NCBI GenBank assembly: GCA_011911785.1
Contig: GCA_011911785.1_4084.1
DNA from: a phage
Reading direction: 5' to 3' (one strand)
Length of the DNA stretch: 64,000 bases
Part shown: one piece after another, positions 31,465 through 61,769 of the stretch
How the letters are laid out: each line of letters starts with the position of its first letter
How positions within the stretch are numbered: position 1 is the stretch's first letter
Program-made: the position numbers and the translations under genes
Notes under the pieces: generated by a model
Told to the model about the DNA's origin: nothing
The model's database searches: none
The model's input: the letters and a program-made list of their open reading frames with translations, nothing else

Positions 31465-32464
<1,000 letters not shown>

Positions 32465-32474
32465 TTAAAAAAAG

Positions 32475-33412
<938 letters not shown>

Positions 33413-33429
33413 CTGTAGTATTCAGTACT

Positions 33430-33621
<192 letters not shown>

Positions 33622-33622
33622 A

Positions 33623-33680
<58 letters not shown>

Positions 33681-33685
33681 CAATC

Positions 33686-33841
<156 letters not shown>

Positions 33842-33870
33842 CAAAAACGAAATTACAATAGGAAATTAAA

Positions 33871-34056
33871 ATGCAACTTTTAATTCTTTCAATATTGTAT
33901 ATTATTATAATGGTTCCGATATCAATACGTTTAATTACAGTTGAACGATTTTTATCGAAACATGGAAATAGGTCTATGATCTTTGTACCAATCGGTCTGA
34001 TATTGTTTGGTATATTTGCATTTATAATGGGAATTAACGCTACATTCATTTCATAG
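33871..34056 (+). CDS. small membrane protein (61 aa)
   Basis: ORF with two hydrophobic segments downstream of tRNA-Asn. Confidence 0.45.
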   Translation: MQLLILSILYIIIMVPISIRLITVERFLSKHGNRSMIFVPIGLILFGIFAFIMGINATFIS

Positions 34057-34065
34057 GAAACAAAT

Positions 34066-34547
<482 letters not shown>

Positions 34548-34554
34548 AAGAACG

Positions 34555-34587
<33 letters not shown>

Positions 34588-34588
34588 C

Positions 34589-34644
<56 letters not shown>

Positions 34645-34645
34645 T

Positions 34646-34879
<234 letters not shown>

Positions 34880-34882
34880 TGT

Positions 34883-35227
<345 letters not shown>

Positions 35228-48050: not shown

Positions 48051-49013
48051 GTGAAGAAACTAGACTTAAACGCAATTTCCGAAGAAGTACTGGATGAATG
48101 TTTTGCGAATGAAGAAGTCAATCCATTGGAAGCAATTGAACCATCAGAAGTTATTGAAGATGATATTCCACATAAAGTTCGTAGTAAAAGTAACATTAGT
48201 CTCAAGCGTCCAGTAGGTGTGACTAATGAATCCATCATCGAAGAGATTCGTGCTGGAATTAATGTAAAAAAGAACACTGACCTATTACTTCGTTATAACT
48301 ATGGTATGATCGTTGATGTTGCTTCAAAGTGTACATGTTATATTCCGTTTGAAGATAAAATTGCATATGGTGTAGAAGGTTTTATGCGAGCACTTAAAAC
48401 CTTTGATCTTAGTAAGAATGTCAAATTCATTACATATGCAACAACGTCCGTTTATATGACTATGTATAATGAAAGTTCAGATGCAAATTACATGGTGTAC
48501 TTACCACGTTATATGAGCGTTCATAACATCCAAGTACGTCGATTTAATGAATCATATCAACGTGAACACGGTAAGCGACCTACACCAGAATTAATCTCTG
48601 AGAGTACTGGTATCGAGCTTCAGCACGTTAAGAACTGTTTGTTATACCAGAATGCATATACGACTCTTGATGCACAACTGGGTTCAGATTCAGACGGAAC
48701 CCTTGGGGATATTCTGAGTTCATCTGCTCGTGATTATAACCTTAATGTTGATAGCATTTGTAATCCATTACGTTATGCAATCACAGAAATCATTGACGAA
48801 TTGAGTACTAAAGAACGAGAAATTATCATGCGTGTTCATGGTCTGGGGGATTACAAAGCAGAAACCCTTCGTGAAATTTCTGATAATGGATATGTTGATG
48901 ATAAAGGAAACATTGTTAAGTCCCGTTCATCTGTGCACCGAAAATATAGTGAAGCTATTCAAAAGCTTAAAAAAATAGTACTTGAAAAAGGGTACGAATA
49001 CGAAGATTTCTAA
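48051..49013 (+). CDS. RNA polymerase sigma factor, sigma70 family
   Basis: Region 2-like GFMRALKTFDLSKNVKFITYATTSVYMTM (cf. GLMRAVEKFD...FSTYATWWIRQ); region 4-like HTH STKEREIIMRVHGLGDYKAETLREIS. Confidence 0.8.
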   Translation: MKKLDLNAISEEVLDECFANEEVNPLEAIEPSEVIEDDIPHKVRSKSNISLKRPVGVTNESIIEEIRAGINVKKNTDLLLRYNYGMIVDVASKCTCYIPFEDKIAYGVEGFMRALKTFDLSKNVKFITYATTSVYMTMYNESSDANYMVYLPRYMSVHNIQVRRFNESYQREHGKRPTPELISESTGIELQHVKNCLLYQNAYTTLDAQLGSDSDGTLGDILSSSARDYNLNVDSICNPLRYAITEIIDELSTKEREIIMRVHGLGDYKAETLREISDNGYVDDKGNIVKSRSSVHRKYSEAIQKLKKIVLEKGYEYEDF

Positions 49014-49020
49014 AGAAAAA

Positions 49021-49047
49021 GGGTTGACTTAGGTCAGCCCTTTTTTT
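49021..49047 (+). terminator. intrinsic terminator (composite module type)
   Basis: GGGTTGAC-TTAG-GTCAGCCC hairpin followed by TTTTTTT; TTGACT hexamer in 5' arm. Confidence 0.7.
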
Positions 49048-49571
49048 ATGGGACAAAATGGATGTTCATGATACAATGATATTGTACAATTCTGTTGGCA
49101 TGGATGACATGAACCTGATCCACTCGAAAATGTAGAGGGCAGTTGAGCAGTCCAGCAGTGCGAAGTGCAGAAGAAACCCGTCAGATGTGGGCATATTATG
49201 AACCCCTCACGGCAATGCGGCACTATAAAGAACCACGTTAGGATGGCTGGTGGTTCCTCGATAGACATATAAGGATAACACCTTACGAATTATCTAAGGG
49301 AGAGTTATCAAATTTTGTACAGGAAAGTTGCGTCCAAAATTTGAGTACTCACATTAAGTATTTGATTGCATAGATACTTAATGAAGATACACTATGTTTA
49401 AAAGTGTAGACCGTCATATGAAACTGAAGTAGAGAGAAACAGGATGACCCGCTTTCGTACTCATTAAGAGTAATCTTCAATGCAATAGCTCTGATACCAT
49501 CAGCGTCAAATTCCCCTCCCAGCGGGGGGAAGAAAAATCCCTTCCTCAAATCCCGTCAATATTAAAAGTCC
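49048..49571 (+). ncRNA. GC-richer ORF-free island (candidate structured RNA or foreign insert)
   Basis: About 520 bp with no convincing ORF, visibly higher GC than surroundings, several G/C-rich potential stems. Confidence 0.3.
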
Positions 49572-49600
49572 TTGACAGTTATTAATCATTCGCGTAGAAT
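49572..49600 (+). promoter_or_regulatory. sigma70-like promoter
   Basis: TTGACA, 17 nt, TAGAAT. Confidence 0.6.
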
Positions 49601-49664
49601 ACGTAGTATTAGAAGCGAACAGACATCTCGAAGAGATGGATGACTAACTATTAAGGAACATTCA

Positions 49665-49874
49665 ATGAATACTACAATCTTTTTAATTGTTGCTCTTTCA
49701 ATGCAATCCGGTGTACAAATTACCCCTATGAATTCATTAAACCAATGTTTTTCTGTACGTGATAGTACATACGAACAAGTAAACAAAAATTCTTGGATGA
49801 CAGTTAGTGAAGAACAAATGTGGTGTTACAAAAGTGATATTAAAGCGAAATTTATTGTAGGACAAACTCAATGA
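49665..49874 (+). CDS. putative small secreted protein (69 aa)
   Basis: N-terminal signal-peptide-like segment. Confidence 0.45.
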   Translation: MNTTIFLIVALSMQSGVQITPMNSLNQCFSVRDSTYEQVNKNSWMTVSEEQMWCYKSDIKAKFIVGQTQ

Positions 49875-50065
49875 TTTATCGAGTGAGGTTTGAAGTTTGT
49901 AAAATTGTTTTCAATAGCAAAGGTGAAGCCTCACTCGATGAAACTCTGCACATATATAATCTCCAATTTAGGGCAAAAACAGAAGCTGATGCATTAGTAA
50001 ACATGTTTAATTTCAACCATAGGTGCGGGTATCATTTAGTAAGAGTTATAGAGGTTAAAAAGTAA
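49871..50065 (+). CDS. hypothetical protein (64 aa)
   Basis: ATGA overlap. Confidence 0.45.
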   Translation: MIYRVRFEVCKIVFNSKGEASLDETLHIYNLQFRAKTEADALVNMFNFNHRCGYHLVRVIEVKK

Positions 50066-50095
50066 TTACCGAATGCAGTGAAGAGGAAATCTAAA

Positions 50096-50890
50096 ATGAG
50101 TACTATCGATGAATTGATTCGACGGAATTCAAAATATTACCAACCATCAGAAATTGTGGATAATATTACTAAATCTGAGTTTGGACCTAATACTCGCAAA
50201 CTCATTCATGTAATGTCTCGTGACGGCTTTAAATGTGATTGTTGTGGTGAATCCAATGTAGTATTCACTTTACATAAGCACAGTACTAAAGAACGTTATA
50301 AATTCAGACCTTATGTACTTAAAGGGAAACGTCTTGTACGCATGACGTTAGACCATAATGTACTGGACTGTCTCCAGGGTGGTAATGATAAAGAAAACAT
50401 GACTGCACTGTGTGAGGATTGTAATGCCTTACGCCAGCATAAGTTCGCAGAGTACAGCGAGTTTAAGTACTGGTATCATAATGCAGACCGTTCAATTGAG
50501 CCTAATGTAAACTACTGCTTCATTGAGTACATCAAGAATGCAAAAGATACATACATTCTTAAATCCATGTCTCCGATTACAGTGTTTCCTGAGAATCTAT
50601 TCAGTACTATGGAGCGTGATTTTAAGCGTGGTATCATCAATGCATTCAAGCACTTAGACAAAGGTATCAAACACTTTGATGTTGAATGTTTAAATTCAGG
50701 TATGAATCGTTTAGTACAAATTTACATGAAATCGTTTATAGGTATTGACAGTGCACGACTACCAGTATATAATTACTTTATTGAAAGCGTAGAAGGTGAA
50801 TCACTTCGTGATTATGGTGAAAGATTTAATAAGAAAGTCTTCACTGCAATAGCAAATGAGATTCATTACTATAAACCATATGTAATTTAA
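50096..50890 (+). CDS. HNH endonuclease (possible homing endonuclease)
   Basis: Start refined to ATG 50096 (RBS gaggaaatctaaaATG); CDCCGE...LDHNVLD...GGND...N...LCEDCNALR. Confidence 0.6.
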   Translation: MSTIDELIRRNSKYYQPSEIVDNITKSEFGPNTRKLIHVMSRDGFKCDCCGESNVVFTLHKHSTKERYKFRPYVLKGKRLVRMTLDHNVLDCLQGGNDKENMTALCEDCNALRQHKFAEYSEFKYWYHNADRSIEPNVNYCFIEYIKNAKDTYILKSMSPITVFPENLFSTMERDFKRGIINAFKHLDKGIKHFDVECLNSGMNRLVQIYMKSFIGIDSARLPVYNYFIESVEGESLRDYGERFNKKVFTAIANEIHYYKPYVI

Positions 50891-51459: not shown

Positions 51460-51487
51460 TTGACAGAAGATATCAGTACTGTATAAT
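51460..51487 (+). promoter_or_regulatory. sigma70-like promoter (GTATAATGTTTAT class)
   Basis: TTGACA, 16 nt, TG-TATAAT; downstream GTTTATATCAAA box shared with 51808 and 62687. Confidence 0.65.
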
Positions 51488-51532
51488 GTTTATATCAAAC
51501 GAAATCCACTTTAACAAATGATAGGAAATATT

Positions 51533-51811
51533 ATGTCTTTTACCAAAGAAGAACGTGACCTTATTAAAAAAGCAATCTGGTTTTATGCTAATGAAGGGGA
51601 GTGCGATGAAGAAAAAGCACGTGAACTGTGTAATATCCTTGAGCAGAAACAAGAACTGAAAGTGTATCGTATCCGTGTTTTGGATGATGGGGATCGTATT
51701 GTCCTAGCTGAAACAAAAGAAGAAGCAGAACAAATCTTCACTGATAAAAACGAAAATCCACATTGGATGGAAGAAGTCTGTGAAGTAAAAAAAGGTACTT
51801 ATATCGATTGA
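51533..51811 (+). CDS. hypothetical protein (92 aa)
   Basis: Start refined to ATG 51533. Confidence 0.55.
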   Translation: MSFTKEERDLIKKAIWFYANEGECDEEKARELCNILEQKQELKVYRIRVLDDGDRIVLAETKEEAEQIFTDKNENPHWMEEVCEVKKGTYID

Positions 51812-51836
51812 CTGTACTGAATAATAGCAGTATAAT
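51808..51836 (+). promoter_or_regulatory. sigma70-like promoter (GTATAATGTTTAT class)
   Basis: TTGACT, 17 nt, TATAAT; followed by long hairpin GGGAATGCAGTGA...TCACTGCGTTCCC in the leader. Confidence 0.6.
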
Positions 51837-57443: not shown

Positions 57444-57450
57444 TTAAAAA

Positions 57451-57476
57451 AGGTTGACTAACGTCAGCCTTTTTTG
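57451..57476 (+). terminator. intrinsic terminator (composite module type)
   Basis: AGGTTGAC-TAAC-GTCAGCCT hairpin then TTTTT; TTGACT in 5' arm; weak -10-like TTATAC 17 nt downstream. Confidence 0.7.
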
Positions 57477-57513
57477 TTATACTTATTCCATATTAATTGA
57501 ATAGGTGCACATC

Positions 57514-58818: not shown

Positions 58819-58850
58819 GGGGTTGGCATAAGTCAGCCCTTTTGTATAAT
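58819..58850 (+). promoter_or_regulatory. composite terminator-promoter module
   Basis: Hairpin GGGGTTGGC-ATAA-GTCAGCCC then TTTTG; TTGGCA in 5' arm, 16 nt, TATAAT. Confidence 0.6.
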
Positions 58851-59880: not shown

Positions 59881-60104
59881 TGAAAAGGTATAAAATTGAA
59901 TACCTACTTAAAGTAAGAGAGAAAAGTATTAGTAGTGAGAAATACACCAGTGAGATATTCGTCAGAGATGAGTATTACATTGGTGAAAATGAAGTTGAAG
60001 TACTGTTACAATGCATAGAAAATGAATTTCGAGATATGACACGTTATATGTCATTTGAGATATCGTGTGCAAAAGTTACATTCTTGAACAATACTTCATA
60101 TTAA
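59877..60104 (+). CDS. hypothetical protein (75 aa)
   Basis: ATGA overlap. Confidence 0.5.
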   Translation: MMKRYKIEYLLKVREKSISSEKYTSEIFVRDEYYIGENEVEVLLQCIENEFRDMTRYMSFEISCAKVTFLNNTSY

Positions 60105-60108
60105 AAAA

Positions 60109-60140
60109 GGGTTGACTTTTGTTGACCCTTTTTGCTATTC
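60109..60140 (+). promoter_or_regulatory. composite terminator-promoter module
   Basis: Hairpin GGGTTGAC-TTTT-GTTGACCC then TTTTT; TTGACT in 5' arm; TATTCT/TATAAA -10 candidates. Confidence 0.6.
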
Positions 60141-61726: not shown

Positions 61727-61735
61727 TAAAAAAAG

Positions 61736-61769
61736 AGGTTGACTTCGGTCAGCCTTTTTTGCTATAATA
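61736..61769 (+). promoter_or_regulatory. composite terminator-promoter module
   Basis: Hairpin AGGTTGAC-TTCG-GTCAGCCT then TTTTTT; TTGACT in 5' arm; TATAAT at 61764..61769. Confidence 0.65.

What the first reader, a model, noticed from the sequence alone, without database searches (positions are those of the whole stretch)
49048..50890. GC-richer ORF-free island upstream of an HNH endonuclease
About 520 bp after the sigma-factor terminator have visibly higher GC than the surrounding sequence, no credible ORF, and several G/C-rich stem candidates. A promoter, two small ORFs and an HNH endonuclease follow. This arrangement fits a mobile insertion such as a homing-endonuclease cassette or intron-like element, or a structured noncoding RNA.
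Basis: partly seen in the sequence, partly recalled or inferred. Interest (0 to 1): 0.6.

Follow-up and report, generated by a model that had tools for sequence, protein, structure and literature searches.

The report
New large structured RNA of jumbo phages
The GC-richer, ORF-free stretch is a separate gene for a roughly 480-nucleotide, intricately folded non-coding RNA. It belongs to a family I found in no Rfam model or searched paper, it occurs in 4-6 copies per giant (Rak2-like) phage genome, and one copy sits in an E. coli defence island. The neighbouring HNH endonuclease is an unrelated, dispensable passenger.

Summary
**Observation: confirmed.** Window 49048-49568 has 41% GC, against 34.6% for the whole window, with a 47% peak. 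It has no ORF beyond chance length. It lies between the sigma-factor terminator and a consensus promoter, which is followed by two small ORFs and an HNH gene.

**What it is.**
- It is a free-standing ncRNA gene with an extended -10 promoter at 49069-49077. The RNA spans about 49084-49565 on the + strand.
- Sequence is conserved across Rak2-like jumbo phages of many hosts, although the flanking genes differ between genera.
- I collected 50 distinct full-length copies (49-100% identical). They support 12 helices: 94% of cells form standard pairs against 74% after shuffling, and 48 of 61 pairs show compensatory double changes.
- There is no coding signal and no Rfam 15 match.
- Each phage genome carries 4-6 diverged paralogues, each with its own promoter. 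Only one lies in this window.
- One internal module is permuted in some subfamilies.
- A full-length copy with the same promoter sits in an E. coli chromosomal defence island.

**The HNH gene.** Linkage to the RNA is not conserved, and the HNH gene is partly deleted in the nearest relative, phage A4.

**Interpretation.** The intron or homing-cassette reading is not supported. The structured-RNA reading is. Function is unknown. My best guess is a trans-acting folded RNA (a scaffold, a ribozyme or an RNA-only assembly), possibly involved in phage-host conflict.

The parts
48051..49013 (+). Upstream neighbour: phage sigma-70-family sigma factor gene. It is context only and not part of the RNA unit.
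   Evidence: ORF. PHROG 351 (RNA polymerase sigma factor), E 2e-50. Annotated as a sigma factor in A4 and 121Q. It is upstream of the RNA only in Asteriusvirus.
49020..49048 (+). Intrinsic terminator of the sigma-factor gene: stem AGGGTTGAC / GTCAGCCCT, loop TTAG, then T7.
   Evidence: Read directly from the sequence. The same hairpin recurs at about 57446, 58820, 60104 and 61730. It is annotated as a terminator in the G17 and UE-S1 records. The pattern scan did not list it.
49050..49077 (+). Promoter of the RNA gene: weak -35 (GGGACA), TG extension at 49069-49070, and -10 TACAAT at 49072-49077.
   Evidence: Found by the promoter scan. A TAYAAT element lies upstream of 68 of 74 distinct family members; 51 of these have the TGn extension and 49 have a TGRRAC motif near -35 (alignments). 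The E. coli island copy has the same promoter. Promoter activity is inferred, not measured.
49084..49565 (+). The structured ncRNA, about 480 nt. The 5' end is inferred from the position of the -10 element. The 3' end is taken as the end of the conserved block (...CCCGUCAAU). No terminator follows this copy.
   Evidence: The nhmmer family profile matches 49095-49569, E 7e-111. The region is about 70% identical in distant genera. There is no coding signal. G.U cells outnumber A.C cells 183 to 47 in the helices, which identifies the + strand as the RNA strand. There is no Rfam match.
49115..49142 (+). P1 hairpin (49115-49125 / 49135-49142) with the conserved loop GAAAAUGUA.
   Evidence: Helices 1-2: 6 of 8 pairs show double changes.
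49147..49224 (+). P2 hairpin (49147-49151 / 49157-49161). P3 (49164-49168 / 49220-49224) encloses P4 (49178-49191 / 49203-49212). The single-stranded junctions AGAAGAAAC and CAAUGCG are invariant.
   Evidence: P2 has UA/AU/CG at one pair; P3 has GC/CG and AU/UA and is 100% paired. The P4 base is invariant apart from 2 of 50 sequences that switch U-A to A-U. The P4 tip shows GGG/CCC, UGG/CCA, CGG/CCG and AGG/CCU variants.
49230..49256 (+). P5 hairpin (49230-49236 / 49250-49256). Its sequence varies but the stem is conserved.
   Evidence: helix 6: 7 of 7 pairs show double changes, with up to 4 pair types per position.
49257..49341 (+). Invariant strand CUNGAUAGACAUAUAAG, followed by P6 (49274-49279 / 49304-49309), P7 (49281-49285 / 49295-49299) and P8 (49310-49317 / 49334-49341). 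P8 closes the conserved 17-nt loop UACAGGAAAGUUGCGUC.
   Evidence: P7 is (82% paired, little variation). P6 and P8 were read by hand from the alignments because MAFFT misaligns them. P6 shows GAUAAC/GUUAUC against GUGCA/UGCAC. P8 shows compensatory stem variants such as CGAUAUUUG/CAAAUUUCG; an enclosing helix of at least 5 bp folded in 26 of the 41 sequences in which my search pattern located the loop. The loop-plus-P8 module sits at a later position in some subfamilies.
49352..49408 (+). P9 long hairpin (49352-49364 / 49371-49383) with the conserved tip UUGAUUGYAUAG, and P10 (49388-49392 / 49404-49408).
   Evidence: helices 8 and 9: 11 of 12 and 3 of 3 pairs show double changes.
49409..49479 (+). 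Invariant GACCGU strand. P12 (49425-49429 / 49475-49479) encloses P13 (49432-49436 / 49452-49456, with a conserved 15-nt loop AAACAGGAUGACCCG) and P14 (49459-49462 / 49468-49471).
   Evidence: helices 10-12: 5 of 5, 4 of 5 and 3 of 3 pairs show double changes, and 97-100% of cells are paired.
49493..49565 (+). 3' part: P15 hairpin ending in CGUCAA (49493-49496 / 49504-49507), the G-rich hairpin P16 (49512-49518 / 49524-49530), and the conserved tail CCUCAAAUCCCGUCAAU.
   Evidence: A P16 hairpin is found in 67 of 67 members, in 55 distinct sequences. The tail and both CGUCAR motifs are invariant. About 14 of 50 members carry a terminator-like hairpin plus a run of 6 or more U between P15 and P16; this window copy does not.
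49572..49600 (+). Separate sigma-70-type promoter (TTGACA-17-TAGAAT, 11 of 12 matches) for the downstream genes.
   Evidence: It is conserved in 121Q and vB_Ec-M-J. It shows that the downstream genes do not depend on the RNA promoter.
49665..50065 (+). Two small overlapping ORFs (69 and 64 aa) of unknown function. They are Asteriusvirus-specific neighbours and not part of the RNA unit.
   Evidence: PHROG 37707 and PHROG 28392. Annotated in A4 and 121Q.
50078..50890 (+). Free-standing HNH endonuclease gene (a start at 50096 is also possible). It is dispensable and probably selfish. It contains a perfect sigma-70 consensus promoter at 50745-50773.
   Evidence: 10 HNH PHROGs, best E 1e-148. No Pfam family passes E 0.01. 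A4 lacks window 50116-50635. This HNH subfamily occurs only in these jumbo phages, at 1-2 detectable places per genome.

Best explanation
Window 49050-49565 is a self-contained gene, promoter plus transcript, for a roughly 480-nt non-coding RNA that folds into at least 15 helices around many invariant single-stranded junctions and loops. What the evidence shows: conservation, covariation-supported helices on the + strand, absence of coding signal, 4-6 diverged paralogues per Rak2-like jumbo-phage genome each preceded by its own extended -10 promoter motif, relocation of one structural module in some subfamilies, and one copy in a bacterial defence island. What is inferred: host sigma-70 RNA polymerase transcribes the gene from TGnTACAAT at 49069-49077, starting near 49084; the product is a stable RNA that acts in trans through its three-dimensional fold; the invariant core binds or acts on one conserved partner (host or phage), while the variable peripheral hairpins distinguish the paralogues. 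The partner and the chemistry are unknown. I rate the steps as follows. 'Structured RNA gene': about 0.9. 'Acts in trans as a scaffold, ribozyme or RNA-only assembly', given that it is an RNA: about 0.55. 'Role in phage-host conflict, such as a decoy or anti-defence RNA', given trans action: about 0.35. The HNH endonuclease, the small ORFs and the sigma-factor gene are neighbours only. The confidence value given for this explanation refers to the core claim (an independent gene for a large structured ncRNA of a multi-copy family), not to the trans-acting mode.
For: (1) About 440 nt are conserved at roughly 70% identity in ORF-free gaps of Serratia, Erwinia, Pectobacterium, Cronobacter, Yersinia, Xanthomonas, Salmonella and Klebsiella jumbo phages. 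None of the records annotates a function there; the only features under the matches are a few very short hypothetical CDSs. (2) The flanking genes differ between genera and between paralogues. (3) There are 50 distinct full-length copies in 25 clusters at 85% identity, with a minimum identity of 49%. RNAalifold predicts 64 pairs, 42 of them with compensatory changes. For a curated structure of 61 pairs, 94.4% of cells are paired, against 73.6% after shuffling (0 of 500 shuffles reach the observed value) and 34-44% when partners are slid by 1-3 columns. 48 pairs show double changes. The covariation score is 0.514, against 0.16 for shuffles and 0.06-0.10 for slid partners. (4) G.U cells number 183 against 47 A.C cells, which identifies the + strand as the folded strand. 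(5) No coding signal: stop-free stretches match shuffled sequence, and column entropy shows no 3-base periodicity. (6) A promoter motif is conserved upstream in 68 of 74 distinct copies. A separate promoter serves the downstream genes. (7) Copy number: 121Q has copies at 90.3, 192.9, 247.5 and 326.7 kb, all on the + strand; A4 has another copy at 205.6 kb; other genomes have 4-6. (8) The ACAAUAUAGAUCCGUC hairpin module sits at a different position in some subfamilies, as expected if the three-dimensional architecture is what selection preserves. (9) A full-length copy with the same promoter lies in the E. coli LR-29-1 chromosome (373.8 bits, E 3e-114). It is in an integrase-bearing island that carries PADLOC candidate defence system PDC-M45, and no flanking protein is shared with the phage loci.
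Against: There is no expression data for any member: the transcript, its ends and its stability are all inferred. The folding energy of the single sequence is unremarkable (z = -1.5). This copy has no terminator, so the RNA could instead be the 5' part of a longer transcript. P6, P8, P15, P16 and every proposed long-range contact rest on hand alignment or on invariant bases, not on the formal pair count. No protein partner, target or catalytic motif was identified, so the 'trans-acting' part of the statement is the weakest. The copies are dispersed around the genome in one orientation, which would also fit a cis-acting DNA or RNA element such as a replication origin. My searches of open-access literature could have missed a published description.
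Confidence: 0.85

Rival explanations
1. Replication-origin primer transcript. Each copy would be an origin in which a promoter-driven, folded RNA forms a persistent RNA-DNA hybrid and primes leading-strand synthesis. Known parallels, from my own knowledge: ColE1 RNA II, the phage T4 origins oriF and oriG, and mitochondrial CSBII. The invariant G6 run near the 3' end would stabilise the hybrid. The chromosomal island copy would let the island be replicated by, or titrate, the phage replisome.
For: There are 4-6 copies dispersed around a roughly 350-kb genome, all in one orientation in 121Q. Each has its own promoter, and most have no terminator. The size resembles ColE1 RNA II (my own knowledge). 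Every member has an invariant GGGGGG with a C-rich partner near the 3' end. The promoter plus RNA is the only thing shared between the E. coli island and the phages.
Against: About 80 invariant positions lie in loops and junctions, there are more than 12 covarying helices, and one module is permuted. That is far more constraint than known origin transcripts show. No AT-rich unwinding element or initiator gene is consistently adjacent. There is no inflection in GC skew at the site, although skew is uninformative here because all genes are co-directional.
Confidence: 0.12
2. Cis-acting leader of the downstream operon. The RNA would modify the polymerase that transcribes it (processive antitermination, like the put RNA of phage HK022), or it would be a very large riboswitch-like 5' UTR.
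For: The RNA lies directly after a promoter and is co-directional with the downstream genes in nearly all contexts. Most copies lack a terminator. Some copies carry a terminator-like hairpin inside or just after the element that a modified polymerase could read through.
Against: In this window a near-consensus promoter lies between the RNA and the next ORF. In the Mimasvirus and Eneladusvirus copies a TTGAC-containing, promoter-like stretch occupies the same position, but I did not scan those loci. The downstream genes are unrelated between paralogues. The RNA is about seven times larger than put RNAs (my own knowledge). The E. coli island copy is followed by about 700 nt of non-coding DNA. 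No riboswitch family matches.
Confidence: 0.08
3. One reading: a mobile insertion. This could be a homing-endonuclease cassette whose cargo is the GC-rich segment, a degenerate group I or II intron, or an RNA that guides or partners the HNH protein.
For: An HNH gene lies 0.5 kb downstream. Distant members of the same HNH subfamily lie within 0.1-2.1 kb of other RNA copies in at least 5 different contexts, although this subfamily has only 1-2 detectable places per genome. The HNH locus is polymorphic: the core is deleted in A4, and identity drops from 99.7% upstream to 97.6% downstream of the deletion.
Against: The RNA is present at this site in all Asteriusvirus genomes examined, and it is 100% identical in A4, where the HNH core is lost. 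Most copies have no HNH gene nearby. The closest HNH homologues in BF, CBB, GAP32 and Yen9-04 lie 6-11 kb from an RNA copy (one search compared). There are no exons and no Rfam intron, HEARO or other match. Orthologous copies keep their synteny across genera. The likeliest link is that a free-standing homing endonuclease uses a highly conserved gene as its landing site, as I recall for T4 segB in the tRNA gene region.
Confidence: 0.04
4. A decayed or unconventional protein-coding gene, for example frameshifted or recoded.
For: Some depositors annotated short hypothetical CDSs over the homologous region.
Against: Stop-free stretches are no longer than in shuffled sequence (median 68.5 against 64 aa). 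There is no 3-base periodicity of variation. The substitutions are compensatory in helices. The annotated CDSs are 32-56 aa long, lie on either strand, and are not conserved between records.
Confidence: 0.01

Closest known systems
ROOL and GOLLD (large 'ornate' RNAs of phages and prophages, which form RNA-only nanocages; Rfam families; PMC12286853)
   Same: These are large (400-800 nt), multi-helix, phage-borne RNAs with many conserved unpaired nucleotides. They have no consistently adjacent protein gene and no known function.
   Different: Neither covariance model matches the window or 12 diverse homologues. The RNA is not next to tRNA genes: only 1 of 38 loci has tRNAs, and those are thousands of bases from the RNA copy. 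The carriers are virulent jumbo myoviruses of Proteobacteria. There are 4-6 diverged paralogues per genome. Oligomerisation was not tested.
HEARO / omega-RNA of IscB (HNH Endonuclease-Associated RNA and ORF)
   Same: It is a multi-copy structured RNA of several hundred nucleotides that is sometimes found beside an HNH-domain ORF.
   Different: There is no Rfam HEARO match. The neighbouring HNH proteins are 158-270 aa and match only HNH-endonuclease families; I saw no RuvC-type match, though I ran no dedicated comparison with IscB or TnpB. Most copies have no HNH neighbour. Copies are syntenic across genera rather than transposing.
ncRNA002 of Pseudomonas jumbo phage PA5oct (451 nt, about 5% of early and middle phage reads; PMC7318152)
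   Same: It is an ORF-free transcript of similar length in a related jumbo phage, and it is highly expressed.
   Different: There is no detectable sequence similarity, even with nhmmer run with all filters off. Structure-level homology was not tested.
ColE1 RNA II and the T4 oriF/oriG origin transcripts
   Same: They are promoter-driven, non-terminated, folded transcripts of about 0.5 kb, and phage genomes carry several dispersed copies.
   Different: The structural and sequence constraint here is far heavier, one module is permuted, and no replication data exist.
Group I and group II introns, RNase P RNA, tmRNA
   Same: The size class (about 400-500 nt) is similar. The motif ACAGgAugACCCGCUU superficially resembles RNase P CR-IV, and GAUAGACA resembles a segment of the T4 td intron. 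Both resemblances are recalled from memory.
   Different: There are no Rfam or ARAGORN matches, no exons, and no complementary P4 partner for the RNase-P-like motif in the sequence. Multiple paralogues per genome are unexpected for RNase P RNA or tmRNA.
Free-standing homing endonucleases beside conserved genes (for example T4 segB in the tRNA gene cluster; from my own knowledge)
   Same: An HNH gene sits next to a highly conserved RNA gene, its presence is polymorphic, and sequence divergence changes across it.
   Different: This describes only the HNH neighbour, not the RNA. Cleavage specificity is untested.

Membership tests
Any Rfam 15 family (4227 covariance models) | A score at or above the family's gathering threshold, or at least a credible E-value. 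| tested here: not met
   At gathering thresholds the whole window yields only 6 tRNAs, elsewhere in the window. A permissive scan of 48900-49800 gives only terminator-type chance hits far below threshold. Twelve diverse homologue loci give nothing over the RNA.
Group I intron | It interrupts a host gene, with exon sequences on both sides that are joined by splicing. | tested here: not met
   The element is bounded by a terminator plus promoter upstream and a promoter downstream. The flanking genes differ between genera and paralogues.
Group I intron | A conserved catalytic core (P3-P7 pseudoknot, G-binding site) recognisable by a covariance model. | tested here: not met
   There is no hit to Intron_gpI, even at E up to 10. 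The supported helices are nested hairpins and two enclosing helices, with no supported P3/P7-type pseudoknot. A weak pseudoknot cannot be excluded.
Group II intron | 5' GUGYG, a domain V hairpin with the catalytic triad, and a six-domain wheel. | tested here: not met
   There is no Rfam group II hit. The inferred transcript start is not GUGYG, and no hairpin resembling domain V is seen.
Bacterial RNase P RNA | A P4 pseudoknot between CR-I (GGAAAGUCC) and CR-V (ACAGAAnCCGGCUUA), and a match to a covariance model. | tested here: not met
   There is no RNaseP_bact hit. A CR-V-like string exists at 49440-49455, but no complementary CR-I-like strand. It lies in the loop of hairpin P13.
tmRNA / tRNA-like RNA | A tRNA-like domain and a tag reading frame. 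| tested here: not met
   ARAGORN finds no tmRNA or tRNA in 49000-49700. There is no Rfam tmRNA hit.
ROOL / GOLLD ornate RNAs | A match to the family covariance model. | tested here: not met
ROOL / GOLLD ornate RNAs | Frequent adjacency to tRNA genes in phages and prophages. | tested here: not met
   Only 1 of 38 RNA-bearing loci contains tRNAs, and those lie thousands of bases from the RNA copy. In this window the tRNA cluster is 14 kb away.
ROOL / GOLLD ornate RNAs | Homo-oligomeric RNA-only assembly. | not testable with these tools
   This needs native gels, mass photometry or cryo-EM.
HEARO / omega-RNA guide of IscB or TnpB | An adjacent IscB or TnpB ORF (RuvC with or without HNH) and a variable guide segment at one end of the RNA. 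| tested here: not met
   The neighbouring ORFs are paralogue-specific. The HNH proteins are 158-270 aa and match only HNH families. Most copies have no HNH neighbour. There is no Rfam HEARO hit. A guide segment was not specifically searched for.
Homing-endonuclease cassette (endonuclease plus cargo moving together) | The whole segment is present in some close relatives and absent from others. | tested here: not met
   The RNA segment is present in all Asteriusvirus records matched, with 34 records covering at least 80% of the query. Only the HNH ORF varies.
Homing-endonuclease cassette (endonuclease plus cargo moving together) | An endonuclease gene of a homing family is present. | tested here: met
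   10 HNH PHROGs, best E 1e-148. The sequence shows the DH...N...CxxCN motif. No Pfam family passes E 0.01.
Riboswitch / cis-regulatory leader | It lies in the 5' UTR of a functionally coherent set of genes, with no intervening promoter. | tested here: not met
   A consensus promoter lies between the RNA and the next ORF. The downstream gene families differ between paralogue contexts.
Protein-coding gene or pseudogene | A conserved reading frame, or codon-periodic substitution. | tested here: not met
   stop-free stretches match shuffled sequence, and column entropy by phase is 0.80, 0.81 and 0.75.

The most novel reading that the evidence does not exclude
This would be a new class of large functional RNA, either a ribozyme or a self-assembling RNA machine, that is specific to Rak2-like jumbo phages. 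It would be maintained as a small multigene family, used in the phage-host arms race, and captured at least once by a bacterial defence island as a decoy or sensor against these phages.
Probability: 0.25. Interest if true: 0.9.

Novelty: categorically new. Interest (0 to 1): 0.8.

Why it matters
Large, intricately folded RNAs with conserved cores are rare. The well-understood ones (ribosomal RNA, RNase P, group I and II introns, tmRNA) carry out fundamental chemistry. The orphan ones (OLE, GOLLD, ROOL, raiA) have each opened new lines of structural and functional work.

This RNA adds several unusual features:
- a roughly 480-nt RNA with textbook-quality covariation;
- 4-6 diverged paralogues per genome;
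- a naturally permuted structural module;
- restriction to giant virulent phages of Enterobacteria and Xanthomonas;
- one horizontally transferred copy in an E. coli defence island.

It lies in cultivable E. coli phages (121Q, PBECO4, phAPEC6, A4, Sharanji), so transcript mapping, knock-outs, pull-downs and cryo-EM are immediately feasible. It also shows that genome annotations of this phage group miss a whole gene family. Depositors left these regions empty, filled them with spurious short ORFs, or labelled them 'repeat_region'.

Tried and rejected
- **Rfam.** I ran gathering thresholds on the window and permissive scans on the region and on 12 homologue loci. Nothing matched.
- **PA5oct ncRNA002 as a homologue with expression data.** No similarity was found.
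- **A conserved protein partner.** The roughly 265-aa ORFs downstream in other genera are unrelated to the window's HNH protein and to one another's contexts. The E. coli island's proteins are unrelated to the phage neighbours. The island backbone protein p303 occurs in a related island that lacks the RNA.
- **tRNA adjacency.** Absent.
- **'Multiple places per record' in the first BLAST.** These were only the repeated terminator. The true paralogues were found later by motif scans.
- **Loose motif scan of viral contigs and a 14-mer scan of bacterial genomes.** Nearly all hits were chance matches. The viral scan added about 10 true copies after nhmmer filtering; none of the bacterial hits passed.
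- **Thermodynamic stability of the single sequence.** Not significant (z = -1.5).
- **All-against-all column covariation, to find pseudoknots.** It was swamped by phylogenetic R/Y co-variation and was uninformative. The long-range pairs proposed by RNAalifold (UGA/UCA and GAC/GUC) involve only invariant or nearly invariant bases and are left open.
- **mafft-qinsi.** Not installed.
- **Regex test for P6/P7.** It failed because the anchors were poor.
- **Literature searches for a description of this RNA.** Nothing found.


Full report
**Identity of the window and check of the observation.** The region is 99% identical to Escherichia phage A4 and 82-87% identical to 121Q, PBECO4 and other Asteriusvirus jumbo phages of about 350 kb.
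- a sigma-factor gene at 48051-49013 (PHROG 351);
- its terminator hairpin and T-run at 49020-49048;
- an ORF-free stretch up to 49664;
- a TTGACA-17-TAGAAT promoter at 49572-49600;
- two small ORFs;
- an HNH endonuclease at 50078-50890 (10 HNH PHROGs).

The GC claim holds on exact counting. Window 49048-49568 is 41.1% GC and 49100-49299 is 47.0%, against 34.65% for the whole window. These values fall in the top 0.6% and 0.2% of equal-sized windows.

**The ORF-free stretch is conserved far beyond the genus, independently of its neighbours.** A sensitive BLAST of 49014-49664 found the central roughly 440 nt (about window 49112-49569) at about 70% identity in jumbo phages of Serratia, Erwinia, Pectobacterium, Cronobacter, Yersinia, Xanthomonas, Salmonella and Klebsiella. 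No functional annotation lies under these matches. In those genomes the flanking genes differ. No sigma factor lies upstream in BF, CBB or GAP32. In 7t3 and Kae01 the element lies between an endonuclease gene and a baseplate gene. The roughly 265-aa ORFs downstream in other genera are not homologous to the window's HNH protein. The element is therefore an autonomous unit, not part of an HNH cassette.

**Structured RNA, not protein.** An alignment of the gaps shows a conserved extended -10 promoter (TGnTATAAT; in the window TGATACAAT, 49069-49077). About 480 nt follow, with long invariant strings separated by hairpins whose sequences change in a compensatory way.

With motif scans of IMG/VR and metagenomes, filtered by nhmmer, I collected 50 distinct full-length members. 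They fall into 25 clusters at 85% identity, with a minimum identity of 49%. RNAalifold on their MAFFT alignment predicts 64 pairs, 42 of them with compensatory double changes.

For a curated set of 61 pairs in 12 helices:

| Measure | Observed | Shuffled partners | Partners slid 1-3 columns |
|---|---|---|---|
| Cells forming standard pairs | 94.4% | 73.6% (0 of 500 shuffles as high) | 34-44% |
| Covariation score | 0.514 | 0.16 | 0.06-0.10 |

In addition, 48 of the 61 pairs show changes on both sides. Helices P2, P3, P5, P9, P10, P12, P13 and P14 are the best supported.

G.U cells outnumber A.C cells 183 to 47, so the + strand is the folded strand. There is no coding signal. The longest stop-free stretches equal those of shuffled sequence (median 68.5 against 64 aa), and variation has no 3-base periodicity. 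The folding energy of the single sequence is unremarkable (z = -1.5), so the case rests on comparative evidence.

Further helices are visible by eye and in local folding, but MAFFT misaligns them, so they are less formally supported:
- P6;
- P8, which closes a conserved 17-nt loop;
- P15;
- the G-rich hairpin P16, found in 67 of 67 members.

**A multigene family.** The motif scans unexpectedly returned several loci per genome.
- 121Q has four copies, at 90.3, 192.9, 247.5 and 326.7 kb, all on the + strand.
- A4 has a further copy at 205.6 kb.
- GAP32, BF, CBB, Yen9-04 and several uncultivated genomes of 355-371 kb have 4-6 copies.
- Only one copy lies in this 64-kb window.

Paralogues are 50-75% identical but keep all the invariant strings. 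68 of 74 distinct copies have a TAYAAT element upstream, usually with the TG extension.

Subfamilies differ in instructive ways:
- Some have a terminator-like hairpin right after the transcription start.
- About 14 of 50 carry a hairpin plus a run of 6 or more U between P15 and P16.
- In several, the hairpin module containing ACAAUAUAGAUCCGUC is absent from its usual place and present about 130 nt further 3'. The E. coli copy has it in both places.

Such permutation is what one expects when a three-dimensional architecture, rather than a linear order, is under selection.

**Comparison with known RNAs.** No Rfam 15 family matches the window at gathering thresholds, the region at E up to 10, or 12 diverse homologue loci at E up to 1. 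ARAGORN finds nothing there. The copies are not associated with tRNA genes: only 1 of 38 loci has any. This differs from ROOL and GOLLD. Flanking proteins form paralogue-specific syntenic groups, with no family shared by different paralogue contexts apart from distant HNH proteins. The 451-nt, highly expressed ncRNA002 of the related Pseudomonas jumbo phage PA5oct (PMC7318152) shows no detectable similarity. Six literature searches found no description of this RNA. One GenBank record (UE-S1) labels part of it 'repeat_region'.

**The HNH gene.** Members of its subfamily occur only in this phage group, at 1-2 detectable places per genome, and only once in the window. Distant relatives lie within 0.1-2.1 kb of RNA copies in at least five contexts, which is more often than chance suggests. 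Against a functional link:
- the closest homologues in BF, CBB, GAP32 and Yen9-04 lie 6-11 kb from an RNA copy;
- most copies have no HNH neighbour;
- A4 has lost window 50116-50635, the catalytic core, while its RNA is 100% identical.

Identity to A4 drops from 99.7% upstream to 97.6% downstream of that deletion, so the HNH gene may mark a recombination boundary. The simplest reading is a free-standing, dispensable homing-type endonuclease that tends to settle beside a highly conserved gene. This is an analogy from my own knowledge (T4 segB in the tRNA region), not something I tested.

**A chromosomal copy.** A search of 5,426 complete E. coli genomes found two chromosomes with a partial BLAST match. 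With the family profile, the match in strain LR-29-1 is a full-length member (560 nt, 373.8 bits, E 3e-114) with the same TGTGATATAAT promoter. It is most similar to a Serratia phage BF paralogue, at 80.6% identity.

It lies in a 1.4-kb ORF-free gap of an island of about 10.7 kb between ffs and ybaA. The island carries:
- a tyrosine integrase split by IS3;
- hypothetical genes;
- an invertase-like recombinase;
- the DuOB and DUF488 genes that match PADLOC candidate defence system PDC-M45, with an adjacent DUF4326 gene.

No island protein resembles any ORF flanking the RNA in phages. A related island with the same backbone lacks the RNA. Plasmids give no match. The promoter-plus-RNA unit has therefore moved on its own into a cellular conflict island. 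That argues that it works without a dedicated neighbouring protein, and it hints at a role in phage-host conflict.

**Mechanism.**
- *Shown:* a conserved, covarying, non-coding, multi-copy unit with a conserved upstream promoter motif, folded on the + strand.
- *Inferred:* transcription by host sigma-70 polymerase starting near 49084; an RNA ending near 49565 or processed there; action in trans through a pre-organised core that recognises a common partner, with the peripheral hairpins varying between paralogues.

I give about 0.9 to 'structured RNA gene'. I give about 0.5 overall to 'trans-acting scaffold, ribozyme or assembly'.

The main rival is an origin or primer transcript (0.12). It is favoured by the dispersed, co-oriented copies, the lack of terminators and the invariant G6 run. 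It is disfavoured by the very heavy structural constraint. A cis-acting antitermination or leader role (0.08) is disfavoured by the intervening promoter in this copy and by the unrelated downstream genes. The mobile-cassette, intron or HNH-guide idea (0.04) and a coding gene (0.01) are essentially excluded.

**Verdict.** The 'structured RNA' alternative is correct, and the 'mobile HNH or intron-like insertion' reading is not. As far as Rfam 15 and the searchable literature show, the RNA belongs to an undescribed family of large structured RNAs. Function, transcript ends and expression remain untested.

Noticed in passing
L326 8990-9549 (E. coli LR-29-1 chromosome NZ_AP027515.1, about 3,478,966-3,479,525); also NZ_CM130020.1, about 245,243-245,450: A full-length member of the RNA family, with the same extended -10 promoter, lies in a chromosomal island between ffs and ybaA. 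The island also carries an IS3-split integrase, PADLOC candidate defence genes (PDC-M45: DuOB and DUF488, with an adjacent DUF4326 gene) and a recombinase. Only 2 of 5,426 complete E. coli genomes have it.
   Followed up: partly
Outside the window: phage 121Q (KM507819) at 90.3, 192.9, 247.5 and 326.7 kb; phage A4 (ON286972) at 205,614-206,123: There are further diverged paralogues of the RNA in the same genomes, all on the + strand in 121Q. Depositors left them unannotated or covered them with spurious short CDSs.
   Followed up: partly
window 50116-50635: This segment, the catalytic core of the HNH gene, is missing in phage A4, leaving a 93-aa remnant ORF. Identity to A4 is 99.7% upstream and 97.6% downstream of the deletion, so the HNH gene may mark a recombination boundary.
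   Followed up: partly
window 50745-50773: A perfect sigma-70 consensus promoter (TTGACA-17-TATAAT, 12 of 12) lies inside the 3' part of the HNH ORF. This part is retained in A4. Further strong promoters lie at 51460-51487 and 51808-51836.
   Followed up: no
window about 57446-57480, 58820-58843, 60104-60133, 61730-61760: Near-identical copies of the sigma-gene terminator hairpin (AAAGGGTTGAC..GTCAGCCCTTTTT) recur, so this genome reuses one terminator sequence. These repeats explain the 'multiple places per record' seen in the first BLAST.
   Followed up: partly
window 31777-35217: A cluster of six tRNA genes (Ser-TGA, Gly-TCC, Ser-GCT, Met-CAT, Asn-GTT, Thr-TGT) lies 14 kb upstream. It is not associated with the RNA.
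   Followed up: no
window 51518-51811: A 97-aa ORF whose A4 counterpart is annotated 'sigma-70 family RNA polymerase sigma factor'. It is far too short for a full sigma factor; it may be a region-4-like fragment or a regulator.
   Followed up: no
L016, L019, L023, L026, L027 and others (class-B paralogues), just downstream of their -10 element: A 9-bp GC-rich hairpin followed by U6 sits between the promoter and the conserved RNA core. It looks like an intrinsic terminator or attenuator at about +5 to +35. Its role is unexplained.
   Followed up: no
L302 8080-8391 and L306 10093-10404: A homologue of the island's DUF4326 (mSLOG) protein, 34% identical, is encoded about 6 kb from an RNA copy in two uncultivated jumbo-phage contigs. 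This may be coincidental.
   Followed up: no
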